A DNA stretch of 64,000 nt from Clostridium sp. Lineage in GTDB: Bacteria; Bacillota_I; Bacilli_A; RF39; UBA660. The notes under the pieces were generated by a model. That model did not search any database. It was not told the DNA's origin and saw only the letters and a program-made list of their open reading frames with translations. Location: contig JAMPDH010000001.1 in assembly GCA_023665725.1 (NCBI GenBank), positions 3,567-67,566 of the forward strand. Direction: 5' to 3'. This document shows positions 15,833 through 50,026 of the stretch, in pieces (positions within the stretch are counted from its first letter, which is position 1; every line of letters starts with the position of its first letter). The translations under genes and the position numbers were made by a program.

Positions 15833-16171
15833 ATGACAAAAAAGCAAGATGCTGTTTTAATGATTAAGAAAAAATTGCAGGGAGATTCCTTTTATACATA
15901 TAAAGAAATCGCAAATTTTACAGGCTATCATCCTAAATATATATTAAAGTTAAAAAAATATATAATAAATAACAACATAAGTTTAGTCCATGGTAATAAA
16001 AATAGAAAGCCGTCAAATGCTTTGAGCGAAGAAGAAAAAAACAAGATAATTAACTTATATAAAAAATCTAGTGTTAGTATACGCAAATTTTGCAAATTCT
16101 ATAGTAAAAGAAGCTATTCTTGTATTTATAATACATTGAAAACTTATGAAAAATCATTAACTAATAATTAA
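15833..16171 (+). mobile_element. Stand-alone HTH protein resembling the N-terminal domain of an IS transposase (truncated remnant?)
   Basis: 112 aa; HGNKNRKPSNALSEEEKNKIINLYKK pattern typical of a transposase N-terminal HTH; no DDE domain follows. Confidence 0.35.
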
Positions 16172-16241: not shown

Positions 16242-18851
16242 ATGAATACTAATGGATTAAATACAAATGAAATAATAGAAAGTAAAAATAAGTATGGTAC
16301 AAATAAAATCAGTTCAAAAAAACCTGAAGGGTTTTTAAAATTATTAATAGAAAGTCTAGGGGATCCAATAATTAGAATTTTAATAATAGCCCTTGGAATA
16401 AAAATTGTATTTTTAATTAAGGATTTTGATTGGTATGAAACAGTTGGAATTGTTATTGCTATTTTTATAGCCTCTTTTATATCTTCAATATCGGAATATG
16501 GAAGTGAAAAAGCTTTTATAAAGTTACAGGAAGAATCGTCGAAAACTAAATGTAGGGTTAGAAGAAATGGTAAAGTAGAGGAAATCTTTGTAGATGATGT
16601 AGTTGTTGGTGATATAGTAATACTTGATTCAGGAGATAAGATTCCAGCAGATGGGATAATTGTAGATGGAGATATATATGTAGATGAATCTTCGCTAAAT
16701 GGTGAAACTAAAGAAGCTCATAAATTAAGTGTATCAAGTTACGAATTAAATCCTAAAGATGAAAATTTTGTATATAGGGGAACTGTAGTATATTCAAATC
16801 ATGCTTTAATGAAGGTTGAAAAAGTAGGTGATAAAACTTATTATGGTGTTTTAGCGCATGAACTTCAGGATAAACAACCAGAAAGTCCACTTAAGATAAA
16901 ACTTAGACATTTAGCGGGCATAATAAGTAAAATAGGGTATTTAGGTGCGATTTTAGTTTCAATTTCTTATTTATTTTCTAAAATAGTAATTGCTAATAAT
17001 TTTAATTTCAGTTTAATAGTTGAAACTGTAACTAATTTTCAATTAATGGCAAAATATATTTTATATGCTTTAACACTTTCCGTAACTATAATAGTAGTAG
17101 CAGTTCCAGAAGGGTTACCAATGATGATTACATTGGTACTTTCTTCTAATATGAAGAGAATGTTAAAAAATAATGTAATGGTAAGAAAACTTATTGGAAT
17201 AGAAACTGCTGGGAGTGTAAATATATTATTTACTGATAAAACAGGTACTTTAACTAAGGGAAAGTTAGAAGTTGTTGGAATAATGAATGGTTCTTTAAAG
17301 GAATATCGAAATGAAGAAGAAATACTAAAATATCCTAGATTTCATGAATTGGTAAAATTATCAAGTATATATAATAATGCTAGTGAATATGATGAAGAAA
17401 ATAAAGCTGCATTTGGTGGAAATATAACTGATAGAGCAATTTTAAATTTTATAAAAACCGATAAAACTAAGAAATATAAAATTATATCATCTATACCATT
17501 TGATAGTAAAAATAAATATTCTATGATGACAATATATAAAGATAGAAAAATTACATTAGTAAAGGGAGCGCCTGAAAAAATACTTCCTAAATGTATAAAT
17601 TATTATGATGAATTTGGAAATTATAAAATACTTAATAAGAGAGAAATAGAAAGTAAAATAAAAGAAAGCACTAGAAAGGGGAACCGTGCTTTAGTTATTG
17701 CTATGGGAAGGATAGAGCAACTTGATTCCTTGACATTTATTGGACTTATATATATAAAAGATGAAGTTCGAAAAGAGGCAATTGAAGGATTAAAACTTGT
17801 TCGTAATGCTGGTATAAAAACAGTAATGATAACAGGTGATAATAAAGATACGGCTGTTTCTATAGGTAAAGAGGTAGGATTGTTGAAAGATAATAATGAT
17901 TTGATATTTACAAGTAAAGAAATTGCTGAAAAAAGTGATGAAGAATTAAAGATACTTCTTCCTAATATAAAAATAATTGCTCGGGCGCTTCCTCAGGATA
18001 AAAGTAGATTGGTTAGAATTTCACAAGAATTAGGGTTAGTTGTTGGAATGACAGGTGATGGTGTAAATGATGCGCCTGCTTTAAAGAAAGCAGATGTTGG
18101 GTTTTCCATGGGTAGTGGAACAGAAGTAGCAAAAGAAGCAAGTGATATAATAATTTTAGATGATAATTTTTTATCTATATCTAAGGCTATTTTATTTGGA
18201 AGGACTATATTTAAAAGTATAAGAAAATTCATTATATTTCAATTAACTGTTAATATATGTGCTGTTGGACTTTCTATAATTGGACCATTTATTGGAGTAG
18301 ATACACCAGTTACAGTTATTCAAATGTTATGGATAAATATGGTTATGGATACTTTAGCAGGTCTTGCTTTCTCTTTTGAACCACCATTATTAGAATATAT
18401 GGATGAGAATCCTAAAAAGAAAGATGAATCTATAATAAATAAATATATGCTACATGAGATATTTATAACAGGTTTATATTCATTTATGTTATGTATATTG
18501 TTTTTAAAACTTCCTATTTTTAAATCAATATATAATCAAGATTTAAATCATTTAATGAGTGCTTTTTTTGGATTATTCATTTTTGTTGGTATATTTAATT
18601 GTTTTAATGCTAGAACACATAGATTAAATTTGTTTAGTCATTTAATTAGTAATAAGGTATTTATGATAATTATTGCATTAATTGTTATAGTACAAATTGT
18701 TTTAATATACTTTGGTGGTAGTATTTTTAGAACGGTTCCGCTTAATTTAAATGAATTCATAATAATGTTTCTTTTAGCGCTTACAGTGATACCTGTAGAT
18801 TGGATAAGGAAGATTTTTCTTAGGAAAAGGGGTATTATAGGGGGAGTATGA
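16242..18851 (+). CDS. P-type cation (Ca2+)-transporting ATPase, P2-type
   Basis: 869 aa; DKTGTLT phosphorylation site, TGDN, GDGVNDAPALKKADVG hinge motifs, 10 TM. Confidence 0.85.
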   Translation: MNTNGLNTNEIIESKNKYGTNKISSKKPEGFLKLLIESLGDPIIRILIIALGIKIVFLIKDFDWYETVGIVIAIFIASFISSISEYGSEKAFIKLQEESSKTKCRVRRNGKVEEIFVDDVVVGDIVILDSGDKIPADGIIVDGDIYVDESSLNGETKEAHKLSVSSYELNPKDENFVYRGTVVYSNHALMKVEKVGDKTYYGVLAHELQDKQPESPLKIKLRHLAGIISKIGYLGAILVSISYLFSKIVIANNFNFSLIVETVTNFQLMAKYILYALTLSVTIIVVAVPEGLPMMITLVLSSNMKRMLKNNVMVRKLIGIETAGSVNILFTDKTGTLTKGKLEVVGIMNGSLKEYRNEEEILKYPRFHELVKLSSIYNNASEYDEENKAAFGGNITDRAILNFIKTDKTKKYKIISSIPFDSKNKYSMMTIYKDRKITLVKGAPEKILPKCINYYDEFGNYKILNKREIESKIKESTRKGNRALVIAMGRIEQLDSLTFIGLIYIKDEVRKEAIEGLKLVRNAGIKTVMITGDNKDTAVSIGKEVGLLKDNNDLIFTSKEIAEKSDEELKILLPNIKIIARALPQDKSRLVRISQELGLVVGMTGDGVNDAPALKKADVGFSMGSGTEVAKEASDIIILDDNFLSISKAILFGRTIFKSIRKFIIFQLTVNICAVGLSIIGPFIGVDTPVTVIQMLWINMVMDTLAGLAFSFEPPLLEYMDENPKKKDESIINKYMLHEIFITGLYSFMLCILFLKLPIFKSIYNQDLNHLMSAFFGLFIFVGIFNCFNARTHRLNLFSHLISNKVFMIIIALIVIVQIVLIYFGGSIFRTVPLNLNEFIIMFLLALTVIPVDWIRKIFLRKRGIIGGV

Positions 18852-18944
18852 GTTATTAACTCATACTTTTTCTATTGTTTAAATTGGTAAAATATGGTAT
18901 TATTATAAAGTAACATAATGCTAACGGTGAAAAGAGGTTTTAAG

Positions 18945-19655
18945 ATGTTAGATTTTATTGTATGTGATGATAACGAATATATTAGAAAAAGTGTTAGTGA
19001 CGTCATAAACTCATATATGATGAAGAATGACCAAGCATATAAAATTAGAACTTTTTCTGATTATAATGAAGAGTTCATGGAATTGTTATCTAGTAATGGA
19101 AATTATAGGATATATATTTTAGATATAGAGGCACCAACTAAGTCGGGAATAGATGTAGCAAGAATAATTAGAAAAAAAGATAAAGAAAGTGCAATAATAT
19201 TTTTAACAGCTCACGAGGAATGTGGGTATTCTGTTTTAAAAAGTTGCACTAATTTTTTGACTTTTATTTCCAAATTTGATGATTATGAGAAAAATTTAAG
19301 TCAAGCTATCAAGGAAGCTTTAAATTTATTACACATAAAAAAAGTATTATCTTTTACTGAACATAGTGTAACTTATAATATAACAGTAAGTAATATTTTG
19401 TATGTAACTAAAGATACGTTGAGTAGGAAATCAATAATTATTACTGATAACAATATTCATAAAACATATATGACAATAACGGAACTTTTAGATAAGTTAT
19501 CACCTGTTTTTATGCAAACACATAGATCATGTATAGTGAATAAAGATAGGGTAGAAAAAATTGATAAAAATAAGAATTTAATAATTTTTGATAATGGGGT
19601 TGAAATAGATTTATTATCAGATAAGTATAAGAAGGAGTTAGTGAGTTGTGGATAA
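18945..19655 (+). CDS. LytTR-family response regulator (AgrA/VirR-like)
   Basis: receiver domain (FIVCDDNEY...D) plus C-terminal LytTR DNA-binding domain; AAGAGG SD before the ATG at 18945. Confidence 0.8.
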   Translation: MLDFIVCDDNEYIRKSVSDVINSYMMKNDQAYKIRTFSDYNEEFMELLSSNGNYRIYILDIEAPTKSGIDVARIIRKKDKESAIIFLTAHEECGYSVLKSCTNFLTFISKFDDYEKNLSQAIKEALNLLHIKKVLSFTEHSVTYNITVSNILYVTKDTLSRKSIIITDNNIHKTYMTITELLDKLSPVFMQTHRSCIVNKDRVEKIDKNKNLIIFDNGVEIDLLSDKYKKELVSCG

Positions 19656-20958
19656 AATAATATTAAATGTATTAGCAGGATTAACAGTTGGATTTGCTGA
19701 TATTTATATGTGGCATAGATTATACAATAAAAAAATAAATTTTAAAGATTATAAGCTATATATATCAATAACATTAATAGCAATAATAAGTAATTTGAAT
19801 TATTATCTTGTTAACAATTATGTAAAGATATTTTCTATAACACTATTTTGTATGTTTGTAAACGCATATTTATTTAATAAGAGGAATAACGAAATTTTAA
19901 TCGCACCAATAGTATCACAGTTTATAATATTGATTGTCGAAAGCGTTTTGATAGCGCCGTTATATTTTTTATTAGACTTTATTAATTTAAAATTAAGTAC
20001 TATATCATTTAATGCACTTTATTTAAATATCTTAATTAGTATACTTTCATGTTTGATTTCTAGATTAAAATGGCCTAGAAAATTATTTATAAAATTAGTG
20101 AAGATAACTGATAAATTAAGTGAAAGATTCTTATTTGTATTCTTAGGATTTATGGCTATAGTGTCAAATTTTTTCATAATGTTACCATATTATGAGTTGG
20201 ATTCTATATATATTGTTTGTATAAATTTTATAATAATCATTTTTTATGTATTTATAATATTTAAAATGATGGAGCAAAAAAATTCTAATATTAAAATTAA
20301 TAATAAGTATAATATAGTAAATAATACTTTAAAAGAAGTTGAACAAAATGTTACTAGACTTAAAATAACAAATCATGAAAATAAAAATCAATTGTTAACT
20401 ATTAGAAACATGTTAAAAAAGGGTGAAAAATCTGATAAAATTATGAATCATATAGATACTATAGTAAAACAAAAAGTTGAGGATGATGAAAATTTAATGT
20501 TTCAAACTTCAACTATAATGAACAGTATGATTAGCTCTATTATATATTCTAAAATGTTAACTATGAAGGAGAATAAAATAGATTCGAAACTTGTAGTAGA
20601 TAGAGATATAAGAAAATTAGACTTAGGAGAAATGGATGAAGACTTATCGGCAGAGGTTTGTAAGATTATAGGAGTTTATTTAGATAATGCGATTGAAGAA
20701 GTTATTAAACTTGATAAAAAGATAGTTAGTATAGAATTATATTGTGAAGATAAATGTTTATGCATAGATATATCTAATAATTTTGAAGGTGAAATAGATA
20801 CTGAAAAGATTAATATCCCTGGATATACTACTAAAAATGATGGTCATGGATATGGATTATCATTAGTAAAAGAAATAATTGATTCTAATCAAAACCTAAG
20901 CTCAAATTTAGAAATTAATAATGATATATTTAAACAAAAGTTAAAAATAAAAATGTAG
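19648..20958 (+). CDS. AgrC-like (HPK10) membrane sensor histidine kinase
   Basis: 436 aa; 6-7 N-terminal TM helices; C-terminal GHKL ATPase with GYTTKNDGHGYGLSLV; overlaps the RR gene by 8 nt. Confidence 0.8.
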   Translation: MDKIILNVLAGLTVGFADIYMWHRLYNKKINFKDYKLYISITLIAIISNLNYYLVNNYVKIFSITLFCMFVNAYLFNKRNNEILIAPIVSQFIILIVESVLIAPLYFLLDFINLKLSTISFNALYLNILISILSCLISRLKWPRKLFIKLVKITDKLSERFLFVFLGFMAIVSNFFIMLPYYELDSIYIVCINFIIIIFYVFIIFKMMEQKNSNIKINNKYNIVNNTLKEVEQNVTRLKITNHENKNQLLTIRNMLKKGEKSDKIMNHIDTIVKQKVEDDENLMFQTSTIMNSMISSIIYSKMLTMKENKIDSKLVVDRDIRKLDLGEMDEDLSAEVCKIIGVYLDNAIEEVIKLDKKIVSIELYCEDKCLCIDISNNFEGEIDTEKINIPGYTTKNDGHGYGLSLVKEIIDSNQNLSSNLEINNDIFKQKLKIKM

Positions 20959-20988
20959 TTTTTGCTACATTTTATTTATGCAATGCAA

Positions 20989-21102
20989 TTATTTTATTAA
21001 ACTTTTTGGGCATTCTGGTTCGTCAAATACTAGCATTAAACATGCTTGACTTCCAACTGATGCAGCCTTAAACCCTAAAAATGATAATATTGCAGATAAC
21101 AT
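20989..21102 (-). CDS. agrD: AgrD-like autoinducing-peptide precursor (37 aa)
   Basis: MLSAILSFLGFKAASVGSQACLMLVFDEPECPKSLIK; amphipathic leader, Cys-containing core, conserved acidic-Pro C-terminal recognition tail (FDEPE.PKSL); GGAGGG SD; directly downstream of agrB. Confidence 0.65.
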   Translation of the reverse strand: MLSAILSFLGFKAASVGSQACLMLVFDEPECPKSLIK

Positions 21103-21139
21103 ATAATCCCTCCTATTCTTTCTATATGTTTAAATTTCT

Positions 21140-21745
21140 TTAAACCGGATTTTCTATATATAACTTATAATTATTATATGGCATATTAAAAATTTTATAT
21201 GTAATTGGTGAAATAGTGATACATTGTGCTATTACCGCAAATATAAAACAATTTGAAATAAAATTATTTGTTATTACAAATGAAAGTATTATATAAACTA
21301 TTGCTATAAAAGTGGATAATAATTTATAAACTTTTCTTCTAGTTGGATTTATAATAGGTCTTTTATGAGTATCAGCTGGACTAAAAGCATATATATTTAT
21401 TATTCCAAGTATTCCTATTATATATTTTAAAATAGGAGAAATTTCTATGTGTAAGCTTATATATGGTACTCCAACAAATATTATTGTTGAACATACTAGA
21501 CAAATCCAACTTTTTGATGCATGTATCCCAAAAGATGGCATTCTCATTATATTATAAATAATTAGAAAAATAATTGCTTCTTTTAAGATACCTAAAAAGG
21601 CACATAGTATTAATATAATTACAAGTTTTGTAACAAGTAAATATATTGATAATAAACCATACTCTATTTGTTCAAGTTCATCTTTAGAGTATTTTTTATT
21701 TTTTTGTACTATTTCTAGACACCAATTTATTATCCAATGTTTCAT
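21140..21745 (-). CDS. agrB: AgrB accessory gene regulator B (AIP-processing membrane peptidase)
   Basis: 201 aa; polytopic; AgrB-family motif FGIHASKSWICL. Confidence 0.85.
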   Translation of the reverse strand: MKHWIINWCLEIVQKNKKYSKDELEQIEYGLLSIYLLVTKLVIILILCAFLGILKEAIIFLIIYNIMRMPSFGIHASKSWICLVCSTIIFVGVPYISLHIEISPILKYIIGILGIINIYAFSPADTHKRPIINPTRRKVYKLLSTFIAIVYIILSFVITNNFISNCFIFAVIAQCITISPITYKIFNMPYNNYKLYIENPV

Positions 21746-22086
21746 ATATCATACTCCCAAGTCATAGTTTACTATATATATTTTAAGTTTAAAAAAAATA
21801 TGTTTTAAAATACATTTTTTAAGTGTTTGATTTACTTACTTGCTTTTTATAATTAAATAATACTATTTTGATGCTCATATAAGCATATTTCACACATATT
21901 TAAAATGAAAATTTAAAATATACTATATAATTAAGAAACATAATATTTGAAAATTTGTTCATTTAAGTTATGTGATTGCTTATGCAAATTTTGTCGAATT
22001 TTGAAGACTGAAATTAATTGAAAATATGCATTATAGAATGTATATTAATATTGTAAGCGAATTTACTAGAAGGGAGATGTTTGTTA

Positions 22087-22298
22087 TGAGAGGAAAAGTA
22101 AAATGGTTCAATAATGACAAAGGATTTGGATTTATTGAATACAAAGAAGGCGAAGATATCTTTGTACATTATTCTGCTATTCTTTCAGAAGGTTATAAGA
22201 CATTAGTTGAAGGACAATATGTAGAATTTGAATTAGTTCAAACAGATAAGGGATTACAAGCTAAAAATGTTGTTGAAATAAAACCAACATTAGTATAA
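22087..22298 (+). CDS. csp: Cold-shock protein (CspA family)
   Basis: [18 protein letters not shown] with RNP motifs; true start downstream of the listed ORF start; long 5'UTR typical of csp genes. Confidence 0.9.
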
Positions 22299-22337: not shown

Positions 22338-23423
22338 TTATTTAATTTTACTTTCTATTATTTTTTTATTATCCTTAAGTCTTTGATCATTTGGATTCAT
22401 TTTAATCGCATTATTTATATAGATTAATGCCTCATCATAAAATCCTAATTGATAACTACTTATAGATAGTAAATCATAAACTGTTTCATTCCAACTAAAT
22501 ACTTCATTTATATAACTTTTGGCGTGATATTTAATTTGTAATGCCTTTTTACACATATTATAAGTGTTTTCAAAATCATTTAATTGATAATATAAAAGTG
22601 CGAATTCAATATATGGATCTCTTAAATAAGGTGATTCTTTTATTGCTTTTTCATACCACAATTTGGCTTCATCATATCTTTTAAGGTTTTTATAACATCT
22701 TCCAATAAATCTCATTGAAGCACATCTTTCATCTTTCCATGTTGCGTTTTTAAGATTTAAATGTTTTATTAATGTATCAATTGAATCATTCCATCTATGA
22801 TTGTACATATATTCTCTTCCTAAATAATGCATATTTCTGTCATCATCGGGATCTTCTTCTACTGACATTTCTAGAAGTTCAAGGTATGAGCTTCTGGATT
22901 TAGAAGCATCGGGGTAATGATTAACTGTTATTTCATCTGTAGTTTCAATTTTTTCAATATTATTACCAGTATAAGTTAAAACCTCATGTACTGGATGTGT
23001 CCATTTATAATTGTTTCTTGTATGAATTTTTTCAATATAGAAATTTACAATTGGTTTATTATTTTCATCAAGGCTCCAGTTGTAATTATATCTTAATTTA
23101 TCTATTTTATCATTCCAAATTTTTTCTAGTTTTTTACGCCAACCAGGTTCGAAAACTTCATCTAAATCGGTACATATACATATATCAGTATCAAGTGGGA
23201 CCATATCTAGTGATTTATTTCTTGCAATATCAAATCTCCATGGTATAATTTTTTCTTCTTTTACAATTACATTATTATTTTTTAACATATTTACTGTTTC
23301 ATCAATTGAACCTGTATCTAAAACATATATATTATCTGCTTCTTTCATGGAATTTACCCATCTTTGTACAAATTTGGATTCATTTTTACTTATTGCATAA
23401 ACACATATTTTAAATTTTTTCAT
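22338..23423 (-). CDS. Family-2 glycosyltransferase with C-terminal TPR repeats
   Basis: 361 aa; N-terminal GT-A fold (YAISKNESKFV ... DTGSIDET); C-terminal TPR-like repeats. Confidence 0.7.
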   Translation of the reverse strand: MKKFKICVYAISKNESKFVQRWVNSMKEADNIYVLDTGSIDETVNMLKNNNVIVKEEKIIPWRFDIARNKSLDMVPLDTDICICTDLDEVFEPGWRKKLEKIWNDKIDKLRYNYNWSLDENNKPIVNFYIEKIHTRNNYKWTHPVHEVLTYTGNNIEKIETTDEITVNHYPDASKSRSSYLELLEMSVEEDPDDDRNMHYLGREYMYNHRWNDSIDTLIKHLNLKNATWKDERCASMRFIGRCYKNLKRYDEAKLWYEKAIKESPYLRDPYIEFALLYYQLNDFENTYNMCKKALQIKYHAKSYINEVFSWNETVYDLLSISSYQLGFYDEALIYINNAIKMNPNDQRLKDNKKIIESKIK

Positions 23424-23566: not shown

Positions 23567-24757
23567 CTATTTTATATCCTTATCATATTCTATATCATTA
23601 ATTTCATATTTACGTTTTCTAGCAATTTTATCCATTGCTTTATTAACAAGGAAACCAACTAGTGCTAAGGCAAAGAAGTAAATAAACCCAAATACGCTAA
23701 AGCTAGGTTCAGATTCTGTAAATAAGTCTATTAATGATGCACCAACACCCATTGATGTAACGATCGTTAAGCTTCCAATAGATTTATTTGTGATTTCTCC
23801 CTGTAAATCATTAAATAGTTTCTGAGCTGATGATACATAATTTTTTGTCATTGACCATAAATGCTTTATATAATCAAGTGTATCTTTTAATGTTTCATAT
23901 CTATATCCAGAAATTGCCAAAAATTCTGAAAGTTCTTTATCATTTTTTGCAATTTTTTCTCTTGTAGGAAGATATGTACTCATTTGATTTATTCTACCAT
24001 CTATTAAGTTTATAGTTTTTGCGTATCCTTCTAATTTAGAATTAAATTTAACAATATCTGACCCTTTAACATTTGCATTTTCTTTGACTTCATCTATTTT
24101 TTCCCAAATAATACGATGTAAATTTAGATATCTATGAAGTTGCCCTTTATATTCACGAATAAATATCTGTTCTTCTATATATCTTTCAATATTATTGATA
24201 GTTTGTTTTTTATTATTAATAAAATAATATTTGTCTCCACGGATAACATCATATTTTTCATTTGTAAATTCAAAATATTTTTGCTTTTCTGTTCTACTAA
24301 GTAATTCATTCATACCGTCTTTATCACAATTATTACATACTATGAAATATGGATATACAGTTTCTATATGCGCAAGTTCCTTTGGAACAGGAGCTCCTAA
24401 GCTAAATAGATAACTAAATGCAGGGGAAAGTTTATTTTCATAATAATCTGTTACACGATCTATATCGGCAAATAAAGTATCTTCGCTAGCATTACAATTA
24501 TTTAATACTATAAGCCCATCTTCGAATATTTTTACTTTTATGCTAAGTGCAGTTGTGAATTCTACATATTCTACTCCCTGAACACCATAATCAATTTTAC
24601 CGATTTCCAAATTTTTTCTGAATTCTATAAGTTTATCTTGATCTAAATTTAGTTGCGTTTTACAACTTCTTAAAAAATCATATATTTCTGATAGTTGTAG
24701 CATAGTTCTTTGAAACCAACCACCTATATAAACATTAGTTATATTCATATTTTTCAC
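23567..24757 (-). CDS. Hypothetical protein, C-terminally membrane-anchored
   Basis: 396 aa; clean ORF with no recognisable family; C-terminal amphipathic/TM segment FSVFGFIYFFALALVGFLV. Confidence 0.5.
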   Translation of the reverse strand: MKNMNITNVYIGGWFQRTMLQLSEIYDFLRSCKTQLNLDQDKLIEFRKNLEIGKIDYGVQGVEYVEFTTALSIKVKIFEDGLIVLNNCNASEDTLFADIDRVTDYYENKLSPAFSYLFSLGAPVPKELAHIETVYPYFIVCNNCDKDGMNELLSRTEKQKYFEFTNEKYDVIRGDKYYFINNKKQTINNIERYIEEQIFIREYKGQLHRYLNLHRIIWEKIDEVKENANVKGSDIVKFNSKLEGYAKTINLIDGRINQMSTYLPTREKIAKNDKELSEFLAISGYRYETLKDTLDYIKHLWSMTKNYVSSAQKLFNDLQGEITNKSIGSLTIVTSMGVGASLIDLFTESEPSFSVFGFIYFFALALVGFLVNKAMDKIARKRKYEINDIEYDKDIK

Positions 24758-49586: not shown

Positions 49587-49663
49587 GGGCGATTAGCTCA
49601 GTTGGTTAGAGCACTTGCCTTACAAGCAAGGGGTCATAGGTTCGAGTCCTATATCGCCCACCA
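49587..49663 (+). tRNA. tRNA-Val (anticodon TAC)
   Basis: cloverleaf folded by hand; anticodon loop CTTACAA; 3' CCA encoded. Confidence 0.85.
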
Positions 49664-49672
49664 TTTTTATTT

Positions 49673-49748
<76 letters not shown>

Positions 49749-49756
49749 TTTTTTAT

Positions 49757-49840
49757 GGAGGGGTAGCGAAGTGGTCAAACGCGGCAGACTGTAAATCTGT
49801 TCCTTCGGGTTCGATGGTCCGAATCCATCTCCCTCCACCA
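49757..49840 (+). tRNA. tRNA-Tyr (anticodon GTA)
   Basis: anticodon loop CTGTAAA; long variable arm (class II); CCA encoded. Confidence 0.85.
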
Positions 49841-49853
49841 CTTTATTGTAGTT

Positions 49854-49928
49854 TGCCTCGTAGCCAAGCGGTAAGGCACCACACTTTGACTGTGGCATGC
49901 GCTAGTTCGAATCTAGCCGAGGCAGCCA
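49854..49928 (+). tRNA. tRNA-Gln (anticodon TTG)
   Basis: anticodon loop CTTTGAC; acceptor tgcctcg/cgaggca. Confidence 0.8.
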
Positions 49929-49950
49929 CTGTTATTATATATTTTAATAT

Positions 49951-50026
49951 GTCCCGTTAGCTCAGCAGGTAGAGCATTTGACTTTTAATCAAAGGGTCAC
50001 AGATTCGAGTTCTGTACGGGACACCA
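49951..50026 (+). tRNA. tRNA-Lys (anticodon TTT)
   Basis: anticodon loop CTTTTAA; acceptor gtcccgt/acgggac. Confidence 0.85.

What the first reader, a model, noticed from the sequence alone, without database searches (positions are those of the whole stretch)
18945..21745. Complete agr-type quorum-sensing locus (agrB-agrD convergent with a LytTR regulator and AgrC-like kinase) with a new AIP candidate
agrB (201 aa) is followed by a 37-aa AgrD-like ORF that is below the ORF-track threshold: MLSAILSFLGFKAASVGSQACLMLVFDEPECPKSLIK. It has an amphipathic leader, a Cys that could form a thiolactone with a C-L-M-L-V-F tail, and the conserved acidic/Pro recognition segment (DEPE.PKSL). It is convergent with a translationally coupled LytTR response regulator and an HPK10 (AgrC-like) kinase, which is the likely cognate receptor pair.
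Basis: partly seen in the sequence, partly recalled or inferred. Interest (0 to 1): 0.5.

Follow-up and report, generated by a model that had tools for sequence, protein, structure and literature searches.

The report
Agr-type peptide quorum-sensing locus
This is a real and complete agr-type cell-to-cell signalling locus in an uncultured, very low-GC gut bacterium; it is an ordinary member of a well-known kind and is already annotated in NCBI, but it belongs to a large unstudied clade with its own wiring.

Summary
Family models confirm each one. NCBI already calls the 37-aa ORF a "cyclic lactone autoinducer peptide" in two Clostridium sp. MAGs.

About 90 related loci from gut metagenomes keep the same layout. 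Their AgrD has a conserved leader ending G-S-Q-A, then Cys (Ser in two loci), then exactly five hypervariable hydrophobic residues, then DEPECPKSLIK.

In one sister species the neighbouring genes are 94-100% identical. There the kinase sensor half is 100% identical when the AgrD ring is the same and 34-39% identical when the rings are unrelated. This shows that the convergent kinase is the cognate receptor.

I predict a tail-free six-residue macrocycle, cyclo(CLMLVF).

New points:
- A cold-shock gene lies divergent from agrB in 72 of 72 loci.
- The spacer between them carries two mirrored pairs of 10-bp direct repeats with a 21-bp period. Each pair sits 29 nt upstream of a -10 box, like S. aureus P2/P3.
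- The regulator-kinase operon has its own promoter without such repeats.
- AgrB is not hypervariable.

The parts
18837..18875 (+). Terminator-like hairpin after the upstream Ca-ATPase gene. It isolates the regulator-kinase operon from upstream transcription.
   Evidence: 18-pair stem followed by a T-run.
18895..18903 (+). Extended -10 (TGGTATTAT) of the regulator-kinase operon's own promoter. No LytTR-type repeats lie upstream of it.
   Evidence: TGnTAnAAT is conserved at this place in relatives. The repeat motif is absent there: mean best score 4.1 against 13.6 in the csp-agrB spacer.
18945..19655 (+). Response regulator with a receiver domain and a LytTR DNA-binding domain (AgrA-like), 236 aa.
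   Evidence: Pfam Response_reg and LytTR. Best solved relatives are ComE and AgrA. D60, T88 and K110 are invariant in 11 relatives.
19648..20958 (+). AgrC-like (HPK10-type) sensor histidine kinase, 436 aa. It has about 7 hydrophobic segments in residues 1-205, then an H-box (H243) and a GHKL ATPase domain.
   Evidence: HATPase_c_5. Best solved relative is S. aureus AgrC. Hydropathy, and invariant H243, N347, G401 and G403. The sensor half is hypervariable and co-varies with the AgrD ring in a sister species.
20945..20978 (.). Weak A/T-flanked hairpin between the two convergent stop codons. It is a possible bidirectional terminator.
   Evidence: -10.6 and -8.0 kcal/mol, z = -1.2 and -1.5, which is not significant.
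20989..21102 (-). agrD, 37-aa autoinducing-peptide precursor. It consists of a leader (residues 1-20, ending G-S-Q-A), Cys21, the core LMLVF, and the follower DEPECPKSLIK.
   Evidence: TIGR04223 scores 25.5 bits, above the cutoff of 19. 83 orthologues share this architecture. NCBI annotates it as a cyclic lactone autoinducer peptide.
21140..21745 (-). agrB, membrane cysteine peptidase/cyclase, 201 aa.
   Evidence: PF04647 E=9e-34. H75 and C82, 7 residues apart, and the PADTxKRP motif are invariant in 12 relatives.
21766..21833 (-). Candidate agrB promoter (P2-like). Repeats AAATCAAACA (21833-21824) and TTTTAAAACA (21810-21801), then 29 nt, then -10 TAAACT (21771-21766).
   Evidence: In 33 of 38 non-redundant related loci a -10 hexamer starts 29-30 nt after the second repeat. 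The position at agrB -83 to -98 is recurrent. In this window the match is weak (11.7 bits, 23-bp period) and does not stand out from background.
21866..21931 (+). Candidate csp-directed promoter (P3-like). Repeats TTTTGATGCT (21866-21875) and ATTTCACACA (21887-21896), then 29 nt, then -10 TATAAT (21926-21931).
   Evidence: Cross-validated motif scores 13.5 against about 5 in shuffles, and 42 of 54 best hits fall at agrB -148 to -164. A -10 hexamer starts 28-30 nt after the repeat in 32 of 38 loci. Coordinates checked.
22086..22298 (+). Cold-shock-domain protein gene (70 aa), divergent from agrB. It is the inferred second output of the system, with a 5'UTR of about 147 nt.
   Evidence: PF00313 E=3e-27. 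A divergent csp is present in 72 of 72 related loci with room, while the outer flanks fall into 9 and 14 different gene families.

Best explanation
This is a functional agr-type peptide quorum-sensing system.

Signal production. AgrB (catalytic H75/C82) removes the 11-residue follower DEPECPKSLIK from the 37-aa AgrD and joins Phe26 to the thiol of Cys21. The leader is then cut after the conserved S-Q-A, which matches a signal-peptidase-type -3/-1 motif. The predicted product is a tail-free six-residue macrocycle, CLMLVF, with calculated monoisotopic [M+H]+ 707.362. With a free N-terminal Cys it may rearrange to a homodetic cyclic peptide, as reported for clostridial AIPs.

Sensing. The peptide is sensed by the polytopic N-terminal half of the convergently encoded AgrC-like kinase, which autophosphorylates on H243 and passes the phosphate to D60 of the LytTR regulator.

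Output. The phosphorylated regulator binds pairs of 10-bp direct repeats (consensus ATTTCAGACA, 21-bp period) centred at about -47 and -68 of two back-to-back promoters. One drives agrBD, giving positive feedback on the signal only. The other drives a cold-shock-domain protein gene. The regulator-kinase operon has its own extended -10 promoter without repeats, so the receptor is probably made constitutively.

Status of each step. Shown: gene identities, conserved architecture, and co-variation of ring and sensor in a sister species. Inferred: ring size, absence of a tail, binding of this regulator to the repeats, and csp as a target.
For: Gene identities.

Catalytic and phosphorelay residues are invariant. 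The role of AgrB H77/C84 in S. aureus is taken from PMC5789755.

Layout csp<- agrB-> agrD-> <-HK <-RR: 52 of 56 loci keep the kinase and regulator, and 72 of 72 keep csp.

AgrD across 83 orthologues: 81 have Cys and 2 have Ser at the ring position; there are exactly 5 variable residues; 75 distinct rings; the DEP..P follower is conserved.

Sister species (L002, L013-L021, L060): RR, TPR, AgrB and the kinase half of the HK are 93-100% identical. The sensor half is 100% identical for identical rings, 89% for FCVII/LCVII, 78% for LCVVL/LCVII, and 34-39% for unrelated rings. At the nucleotide level there are two separate variable islands in an otherwise 96-100% identical locus.

Six-membered tail-free AIPs are known from C. 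acetobutylicum ([CVLVTL]) and R. cellulolyticum, together with the S->N acyl shift (PMC8251862; PMC12312760).

Promoter architecture. It has the same 21-bp period and opposite orientation as the S. aureus P2/P3 AgrA sites (sequences in PMC8228455). No repeats lie upstream of the RR.
Against: There is no experimental evidence; the organism is known only from two MAGs.

In this window the repeat pairs score only 11.5-11.7 bits. That is no better than chance hits elsewhere in the 64 kb: 8 hits of at least 12 bits against 13 expected. The agrB-side pair has a 23-bp rather than a 21-bp period. The promoter model therefore rests on comparative data, not on this sequence alone.

Ring size and tail are inferred only from conservation boundaries.

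No MroQ/CPBP-type leader protease was seen in the window by motif search.

The hairpin between the convergent operons is weak, so transcriptional interference is possible.

A few relatives have lost or disrupted the kinase and regulator (L026, L042, L061, L078).
Confidence: 0.85

Rival explanations
1. agrBD and the kinase/regulator pair are neighbours but not partners. The two-component system senses another signal, and the AIP is sensed elsewhere or not at all, as with the orphan agrBD of C. perfringens or C. difficile agr1.
For: The two operons are separate and convergent. The RR-HK operon has its own promoter without repeats. Orphan agrBD loci exist in other clostridia (PMC12312760). Four relatives have agrBD without an intact pair.
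Against: 52 of 56 loci keep the pair directly after agrD. In a sister species the kinase sensor half tracks the AgrD ring exactly: 100% identical for the same ring, a graded fall for similar rings, and 34-39% for unrelated rings. The kinase half and all neighbouring genes stay 93-100% identical.
Confidence: 0.07
2. The AgrBD product is mainly an interference or antimicrobial RiPP aimed at competitors rather than a self-signal.
For: The rings are extremely diverse (75 distinct rings in 83 loci). Synthetic gut AIPs showed antibiofilm and community effects (PMC11953309).
Against: Co-variation with a dedicated sensor kinase is the signature of self-recognition. Cross-inhibition is a known secondary property of agr systems and is compatible with the main explanation.
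Confidence: 0.05
3. The direct repeats in the csp-agrB spacer belong to csp regulation by another factor, and csp sits next to agr only through inherited synteny. Under this reading the agr system has no P3-like output here.
For: csp is a housekeeping-type gene and often lies next to hpf (31 loci). The motif is AT-rich and non-specific at genome scale.
Against: Both pairs keep a fixed distance to agrB (about -150 and -87) whatever the spacer length (205-354 nt). Both precede a -10 box by the same 29 nt. The same motif trained on the csp side recurs in inverted orientation on the agrB side. A 21-bp period of 9-10-bp direct repeats is typical of LytTR regulators. The outer flanks vary while csp stays.
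Confidence: 0.35

Closest known systems
Staphylococcus aureus agrBDCA / RNAIII (P2/P3)
   Same: The four protein types are the same. The AgrB His/Cys pair has the same 7-residue spacing. The kinase is HPK10-type and the regulator is LytTR-type. Allelic specificity groups occur in which the AIP core and kinase sensor co-vary. Two back-to-back promoters each carry a pair of direct repeats with a 21-bp period.
   Different: There are two convergent operons instead of one. The order is regulator then kinase, under a separate repeat-free promoter, so only signal production would be autoinduced. AgrD has 37 aa and an 11-aa follower. The ring is predicted to have six members and no tail. The variable region is split into two islands about 700 bp apart, and AgrB is not variable. 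The divergent gene is a cold-shock protein, not RNAIII; Rfam gives no RNA match.
[quoted passage not shown]
   Same: agrBD and the receptor genes are listed as separate units ('agrBD agrCA'). The AIP is a six-membered macrocycle without an N-terminal tail (PMC12312760; PMC8251862). From my own memory, the spacing between Cys and the E-P of the follower is also the same.
   Different: In this locus the regulator gene precedes the kinase gene and the two operons converge; the gene orientation in C. acetobutylicum was not checked here. No csp linkage is reported for that species.
Ruminiclostridium cellulolyticum Rc-AIP1 and other clostridial cAIPs (Molloy et al. 2021)
   Same: The core is a six-residue Cys-first peptide. 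Tail-free thiolactones rearrange by S->N acyl shift to homodetic cyclopeptides. The conserved S-Q-A directly before Cys predicts the same for this locus.
   Different: The product here has not been observed, and the host lineage is different.
Clostridium perfringens agrBD with VirS/VirR
   Same: The follower motif P-E-x-P-K-S-L is similar (from my own memory). The AIP [CLWFT] is tail-free.
   Different: The C. perfringens ring has five members and its agrBD is listed without receptor genes. Here the ring is predicted to have six members and the receptor pair is adjacent.

Membership tests
agr-type quorum sensing (AgrB/AgrD/AgrC/AgrA) | AgrB-family membrane peptidase | tested here: met
   PF04647 scores 116.8 bits against a cutoff of 23. 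The NCBIfam equivalog PRK01100 cutoff is not reached (117.8 against 282), so this is a family member but not a close orthologue.
agr-type quorum sensing (AgrB/AgrD/AgrC/AgrA) | AgrB catalytic His and Cys (S. aureus H77/C84, 7 residues apart) | tested here: met
   H75 and C82 are invariant in 12 relatives. The requirement for these residues is taken from PMC5789755. The correspondence rests on motif and spacing, not on a direct alignment to S. aureus AgrB.
agr-type quorum sensing (AgrB/AgrD/AgrC/AgrA) | AgrD precursor directly after agrB, built as leader, Cys/Ser core and acidic Pro-containing follower | tested here: met
   TIGR04223 scores 25.5 against a cutoff of 19. 83 orthologues have Cys (81) or Ser (2), five variable residues and DEP..P. 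The staphylococcal Pfam model PF05931 is below threshold (16.3 against 22.7).
agr-type quorum sensing (AgrB/AgrD/AgrC/AgrA) | HPK10-type polytopic sensor kinase | tested here: met
   HATPase_c_5. About 7 hydrophobic segments and invariant H243. The best PDB relative is AgrC. The NCBIfam AgrC equivalog cutoff is not reached (50.5 against 500).
agr-type quorum sensing (AgrB/AgrD/AgrC/AgrA) | Response regulator with a LytTR domain | tested here: met
   Response_reg plus LytTR. D60, T88 and K110 are invariant. The AgrA equivalog cutoff is not reached (55.8 against 400).
agr-type quorum sensing (AgrB/AgrD/AgrC/AgrA) | Peptide core and kinase sensor co-vary (specificity groups) | tested here: met
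   Shown in a sister species. It cannot be tested in the window's own species because only one allele is known.
agr-type quorum sensing (AgrB/AgrD/AgrC/AgrA) | Pairs of LytTR-type direct repeats upstream of agrB (autoinduction) | tested here: inconclusive
   The clade-wide geometry is strong: a -10 hexamer lies 29-30 nt after the repeat in 33 of 38 loci. The window's own agrB-side pair is weak and has a 23-bp period.
agr-type quorum sensing (AgrB/AgrD/AgrC/AgrA) | A secreted cyclic (thio)lactone peptide that activates the kinase | not testable with these tools
   This needs LC-MS and reporter assays.
Staphylococcal-type agrBDCA operon with RNAIII | Four genes in one operon under P2 | tested here: not met
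   There are two convergent operons, with the regulator gene before the kinase gene.
Staphylococcal-type agrBDCA operon with RNAIII | Divergent RNAIII effector RNA | tested here: not met
   The divergent gene is a cold-shock protein. Rfam at gathering thresholds finds only tRNAs in the window.
Staphylococcal-type agrBDCA operon with RNAIII | Contiguous hypervariable block spanning the 3' part of agrB, agrD and the 5' part of agrC | tested here: not met
   In the sister species AgrB is 93-100% identical across ring types. The variable islands (the agrD ring and the kinase sensor) are separated by the conserved kinase-domain coding sequence.

The most novel reading that the evidence does not exclude
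This locus represents a large, undescribed clade of agr systems in uncultured low-GC gut bacteria, with at least 399 AgrB clusters at 90% identity. In this clade:
1. The P3-type output of the LytTR regulator is a cold-shock-domain RNA-binding protein rather than a regulatory RNA.
2. Only signal production is autoinduced; the receptor is not.
3. Pherotype diversification runs on two physically separate hypervariable islands, the five ring codons and the kinase sensor, with a generalist AgrB.
4. The signals are tail-free six-residue cycles.
Probability: 0.4. Interest if true: 0.6.

Novelty: new member of a known kind. Interest (0 to 1): 0.4.

Why it matters
The locus adds one more predicted autoinducing peptide, from an uncultured gut bacterium, to a well-understood signalling family.

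The wider value lies in the clade it belongs to. It holds dozens of natural pairs of peptide ring and sensor domain. These include several alleles inside one species on an otherwise identical background, which makes a ready-made data set for learning how AgrC-type receptors read their ligands.

The clade also offers a concrete, testable suggestion that quorum sensing here controls a cold-shock RNA chaperone.

Finally, the predicted peptides are short and easy to synthesise, which is useful for probing communication among gut commensals that cannot yet be grown.

Tried and rejected
- AgrB has no sequence relative in the PDB.
- The repeat finder saw no direct repeats in the spacer, only AT-rich inverted repeats.
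- The promoter consensus scan was no better than shuffles in this 25% GC DNA.
- A strict search for repeat pairs with at most 1 mismatch found nothing.
- A first Gibbs run on 13 loci gave only a modest signal and put the window's pair in the wrong register. The motif became clear only with about 54 non-redundant spacers.
- Scanning the whole window with the motif to find a regulon failed, because hits equal the shuffle expectation.
- The hairpin between the convergent genes is not significant.
- The leader's amphipathicity is not supported.
- No CPBP/MroQ-like protease motif and no second AgrD-like ORF were found in the window.
- Literature searches for the follower string and for agr together with csp or RF39 found nothing relevant.
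- The supplements of the gut RiPP survey are not held.
- A chance ORF and a decayed locus were both rejected: the ORF is conserved in 83 loci and all catalytic residues are intact.
Full report
OBSERVATION

- Response regulator (RR) 18945-19655(+).
- Histidine kinase (HK) 19648-20958(+), with a GTG start preceded by AAGGAG and an 8-nt overlap with the regulator's stop codon.
- agrD 20989-21102(-), 37 aa, with an AGGAGGG ribosome-binding site.
- agrB 21140-21745(-).

The two operons converge with 30 nt between their stop codons.

Pfam gives AgrB (E=9e-34), Response_reg plus LytTR, and HATPase_c_5. NCBIfam's AgrD model TIGR04223 is passed (25.5 bits against a cutoff of 19), while the staphylococcal Pfam AgrD model is not. 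The equivalog models for staphylococcal AgrA and AgrC are hit at full length but far below their cutoffs. These are therefore family members, not close orthologues.

The best solved relative of the kinase is S. aureus AgrC. The best relatives of the regulator are ComE and AgrA.

All four proteins are already in NCBI from two MAGs labelled Clostridium sp., and the 37-aa ORF is annotated there as a 'cyclic lactone autoinducer peptide'. One detail fails: the leader is hydrophobic, but its helical hydrophobic moment is no larger than that of shuffles.

CONTEXT

The window has about 25% GC. Its ORFs read through under genetic code 11, and TGA is a rare stop, used in 3 of 47 large ORFs. The neighbours are housekeeping genes: Ddl, pseudouridine synthases, ABC ATPases and a Ca-ATPase. 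This is a chromosomal locus, not a mobile element.

An AgrB search found 399 clusters with E<=1e-5. All came from metagenomes or MAGs, and the nearest was only 64% identical. The source records are labelled variously as Clostridia, Bacilli, Tenericutes or Mycoplasmataceae.

CONSERVATION OF THE LOCUS

I fetched 12 loci from species-representative genomes and 80 from metagenomes.
- The order csp<- agrB-> agrD-> <-kinase <-regulator is kept in 52 of 56 loci that have enough sequence after agrB.
- A divergent cold-shock gene precedes agrB in 72 of 72 loci with room.
- The outer flanks fall into 9 families on the csp side and 14 on the regulator side, so these five genes travel together.
- Exceptions show decay or disruption: a transposase-like gene inserted after agrD in L001 and L026, kinase and regulator absent in L042 and L061, and a truncated kinase in L078.

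AgrD

83 orthologues, including the window's, share one plan:
- A leader of about 20 residues, ending mostly in G-S-Q-A.
- Cys in 81 loci and Ser in two (L057, L069). The Ser variants mark this position as the cyclisation nucleophile, rather than the second Cys in the follower.
- Exactly five hydrophobic, hypervariable residues, with 75 different rings. LMLVF occurs only in the window.
- The follower DEP[EK]CP[KE]SLIK running to the stop codon.

The boundaries of the variable block argue that AgrB cuts between Phe26 and Asp27, which gives a six-residue ring. Six-membered, tail-free AIPs are established for C. acetobutylicum ([CVLVTL]) and R. cellulolyticum (CWFWSY) (PMC12312760; PMC8251862).

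Conservation runs right up to the Cys, and S-x-A at positions -3 to -1 fits a type I signal-peptidase site (own knowledge). Together these suggest that no variable tail is left. Tail-free thiolactones were shown to rearrange to homodetic cyclopeptides.

The predicted product is cyclo(CLMLVF), monoisotopic mass 706.3546, [M+H]+ 707.362 (hand calculation). Ring size and tail are inferences.

AgrB, KINASE AND REGULATOR

AgrB's H75 and C82, seven residues apart as in S. aureus H77/C84 (PMC5789755), and a PADTxKRP motif are invariant in 12 relatives.

The kinase has about seven hydrophobic segments in residues 1-205 and invariant H243, N347, G401 and G403. The regulator has invariant D60, T88 and K110.

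IS THE CONVERGENT KINASE THE RECEPTOR?

Against the two nearest species, the kinase's sensor half is about 30-40% identical while its kinase half is 65-75% identical.

The decisive evidence comes from one sister species sampled eleven times (L002, L013-L021, L060). Regulator, TPR protein, AgrB and the kinase half are 93-100% identical in all pairs. The set nevertheless carries six AgrD rings, and sensor-half identity tracks the ring:

| Ring pair | Sensor-half identity |
|---|---|
| Identical rings (VLFLL, five loci; LCVVL, two loci) | 100% |
| FCVII / LCVII | 89% |
| LCVVL / LCVII | 78% |
| Three differences | 60-71% |
| Unrelated rings | 34-39% |

At the nucleotide level the locus is 96-100% identical except for two islands. 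One covers the ring codons. The other covers about 600 nt of sensor-coding sequence at 48-65% identity. About 700 nt of conserved kinase-domain sequence separates them.

This is the pattern of agr specificity groups, with two differences from S. aureus: the variable region is not contiguous, and AgrB does not take part in it.

The same test cannot be made for the window's own species, where only one allele is known.

PROMOTERS

The regulator-kinase operon follows a terminator (18837-18875). It has a conserved extended -10 box (TGGTATTAT, 18895-18903).

The csp-agrB spacer carries a pair of 10-bp direct repeats with a 21-bp period. Read in the direction of transcription, the consensus is ATTTCAGACA.
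- In two-fold cross-validation, held-out loci score 13.3-13.8 bits against 4.5-5.8 for dinucleotide shuffles.
- 42 of 54 best hits lie at -148 to -164 from the agrB start, although spacer length ranges from 205 to 354 nt.
- This pair points towards csp. A near-consensus -10 hexamer starts 28-30 nt after it in 32 of 38 loci.
- The same motif, trained only on that pair, recurs in the opposite orientation at about -83 to -98 from agrB. It is followed after 29-30 nt by a -10 hexamer in 33 of 38 loci.

The repeats would thus occupy about -72 to -42 of two back-to-back promoters. S. aureus P2 and P3 have the same plan, with 9-bp AgrA sites, a 21-bp period and opposite orientation (sequences in PMC8228455).

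No such pair is found upstream of the regulator gene: the mean best score is 4.1 and positions are scattered.

In the window the sites are as follows:
- csp side: 21866-21875 and 21887-21896, with TATAAT at 21926-21931. This gives a 5'UTR of about 147 nt.
- agrB side: 21833-21824 and 21810-21801, with TAAACT at 21771-21766. This gives a leader of about 14 nt.

They score only 11.5-11.7 bits, the agrB pair has a 23-bp period, and such scores are as common elsewhere in the window as in shuffles. The model is therefore comparative, and no regulon can be read from this window.

That the adjacent LytTR regulator is the protein that binds these repeats is an inference from the site type and the linkage.

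MECHANISM AND RIVALS

The best explanation is a working agr-type circuit (confidence 0.85):
- The receptor pair is made constitutively.
- AgrBD make a six-residue cyclic peptide.
- The kinase sensor recognises the peptide.
- The regulator activates agrBD and probably csp.

The sub-claims are less certain: about 0.6 for a six-membered tail-free ring, and about 0.5 for csp as a direct target.

The rival that the kinase/regulator pair is unrelated to the peptide is contradicted by the co-variation (0.07). A purely antagonistic or antimicrobial role is not excluded as a side activity (0.05). The reading that the repeats serve csp through another factor remains open (0.35).

NOVELTY

The kind of system is well known, and the ORF is found by a standard annotation model.

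No paper in the library contains the follower sequence or links agr with csp. The clade appears undescribed in that library, although only open-access text was searched.

The features that would make it a variant are the csp output, autoinduction of the signal only, the split hypervariable islands, and a generalist AgrB. They are partly shown in relatives and partly inferred.

Noticed in passing
L002, L013-L021, L060 (sister species; agrD and the 5' 600 nt of the kinase gene): Six AgrD ring alleles occur within one species on a background that is 96-100% identical at the nucleotide level. Each has a matching kinase-sensor allele. AgrB is not variable, and the two variable islands lie about 700 bp apart.
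   Followed up: yes
L057 and L069, agrD: The ring-forming Cys is replaced by Ser (SYLWIW and SLWIIF), which predicts lactone rather than thiolactone peptides. The follower Cys is kept.
   Followed up: partly
window 21991-22002 (csp 5'UTR) and the same place in many loci: A conserved box TTGTCGAA(A)TTT lies inside the long csp leader. It may be an RNA element of csp autoregulation. The spacing does not fit a promoter.
   Followed up: no
window 18912-18925 and relatives (leader of the regulator gene): A conserved AACATAATGC(T/A)AAC-like motif lies between the extended -10 box and the ribosome-binding site of the regulator gene. Its role is unknown.
   Followed up: no
L001:981-2576 and L026:4362-5913: A transposase-like gene (531 aa in L001, fragments in L026) is inserted right after agrD, displacing the kinase. 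L042 and L061 lack the kinase and regulator, and L078 has a truncated kinase.
   Followed up: partly
AgrD follower, window residue C31 (DEPECPKSLIK): A second Cys is conserved in the follower in 74 of 83 orthologues and is Met in the other 9. It is removed with the follower, and its role is unknown.
   Followed up: no
window 49587-51176: A cluster of 12 tRNA genes on the + strand. These are the only Rfam matches in the window.
   Followed up: no
window 23567-24757(-) and 15833-16171(+): ORFs of 396 aa and 112 aa have no Pfam match. The 396-aa protein ends in a hydrophobic segment.
   Followed up: no
31 related loci, gene beyond csp: The most common outer neighbour of csp is a 176-aa ORF that looks, from its N-terminal sequence, like a ribosome hibernation factor (from memory; no family scan was run). 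In the window and its nearest relatives the neighbour is instead a glycosyltransferase-TPR protein (22338-23423).
   Followed up: no
whole window: GC content is about 25%. TGA is a rare stop codon, used in 3 of 47 large ORFs. Related records are labelled Clostridium, Clostridia, Bacilli, Tenericutes or Mycoplasmataceae, so the taxonomic placement of the host is unsettled.
   Followed up: no
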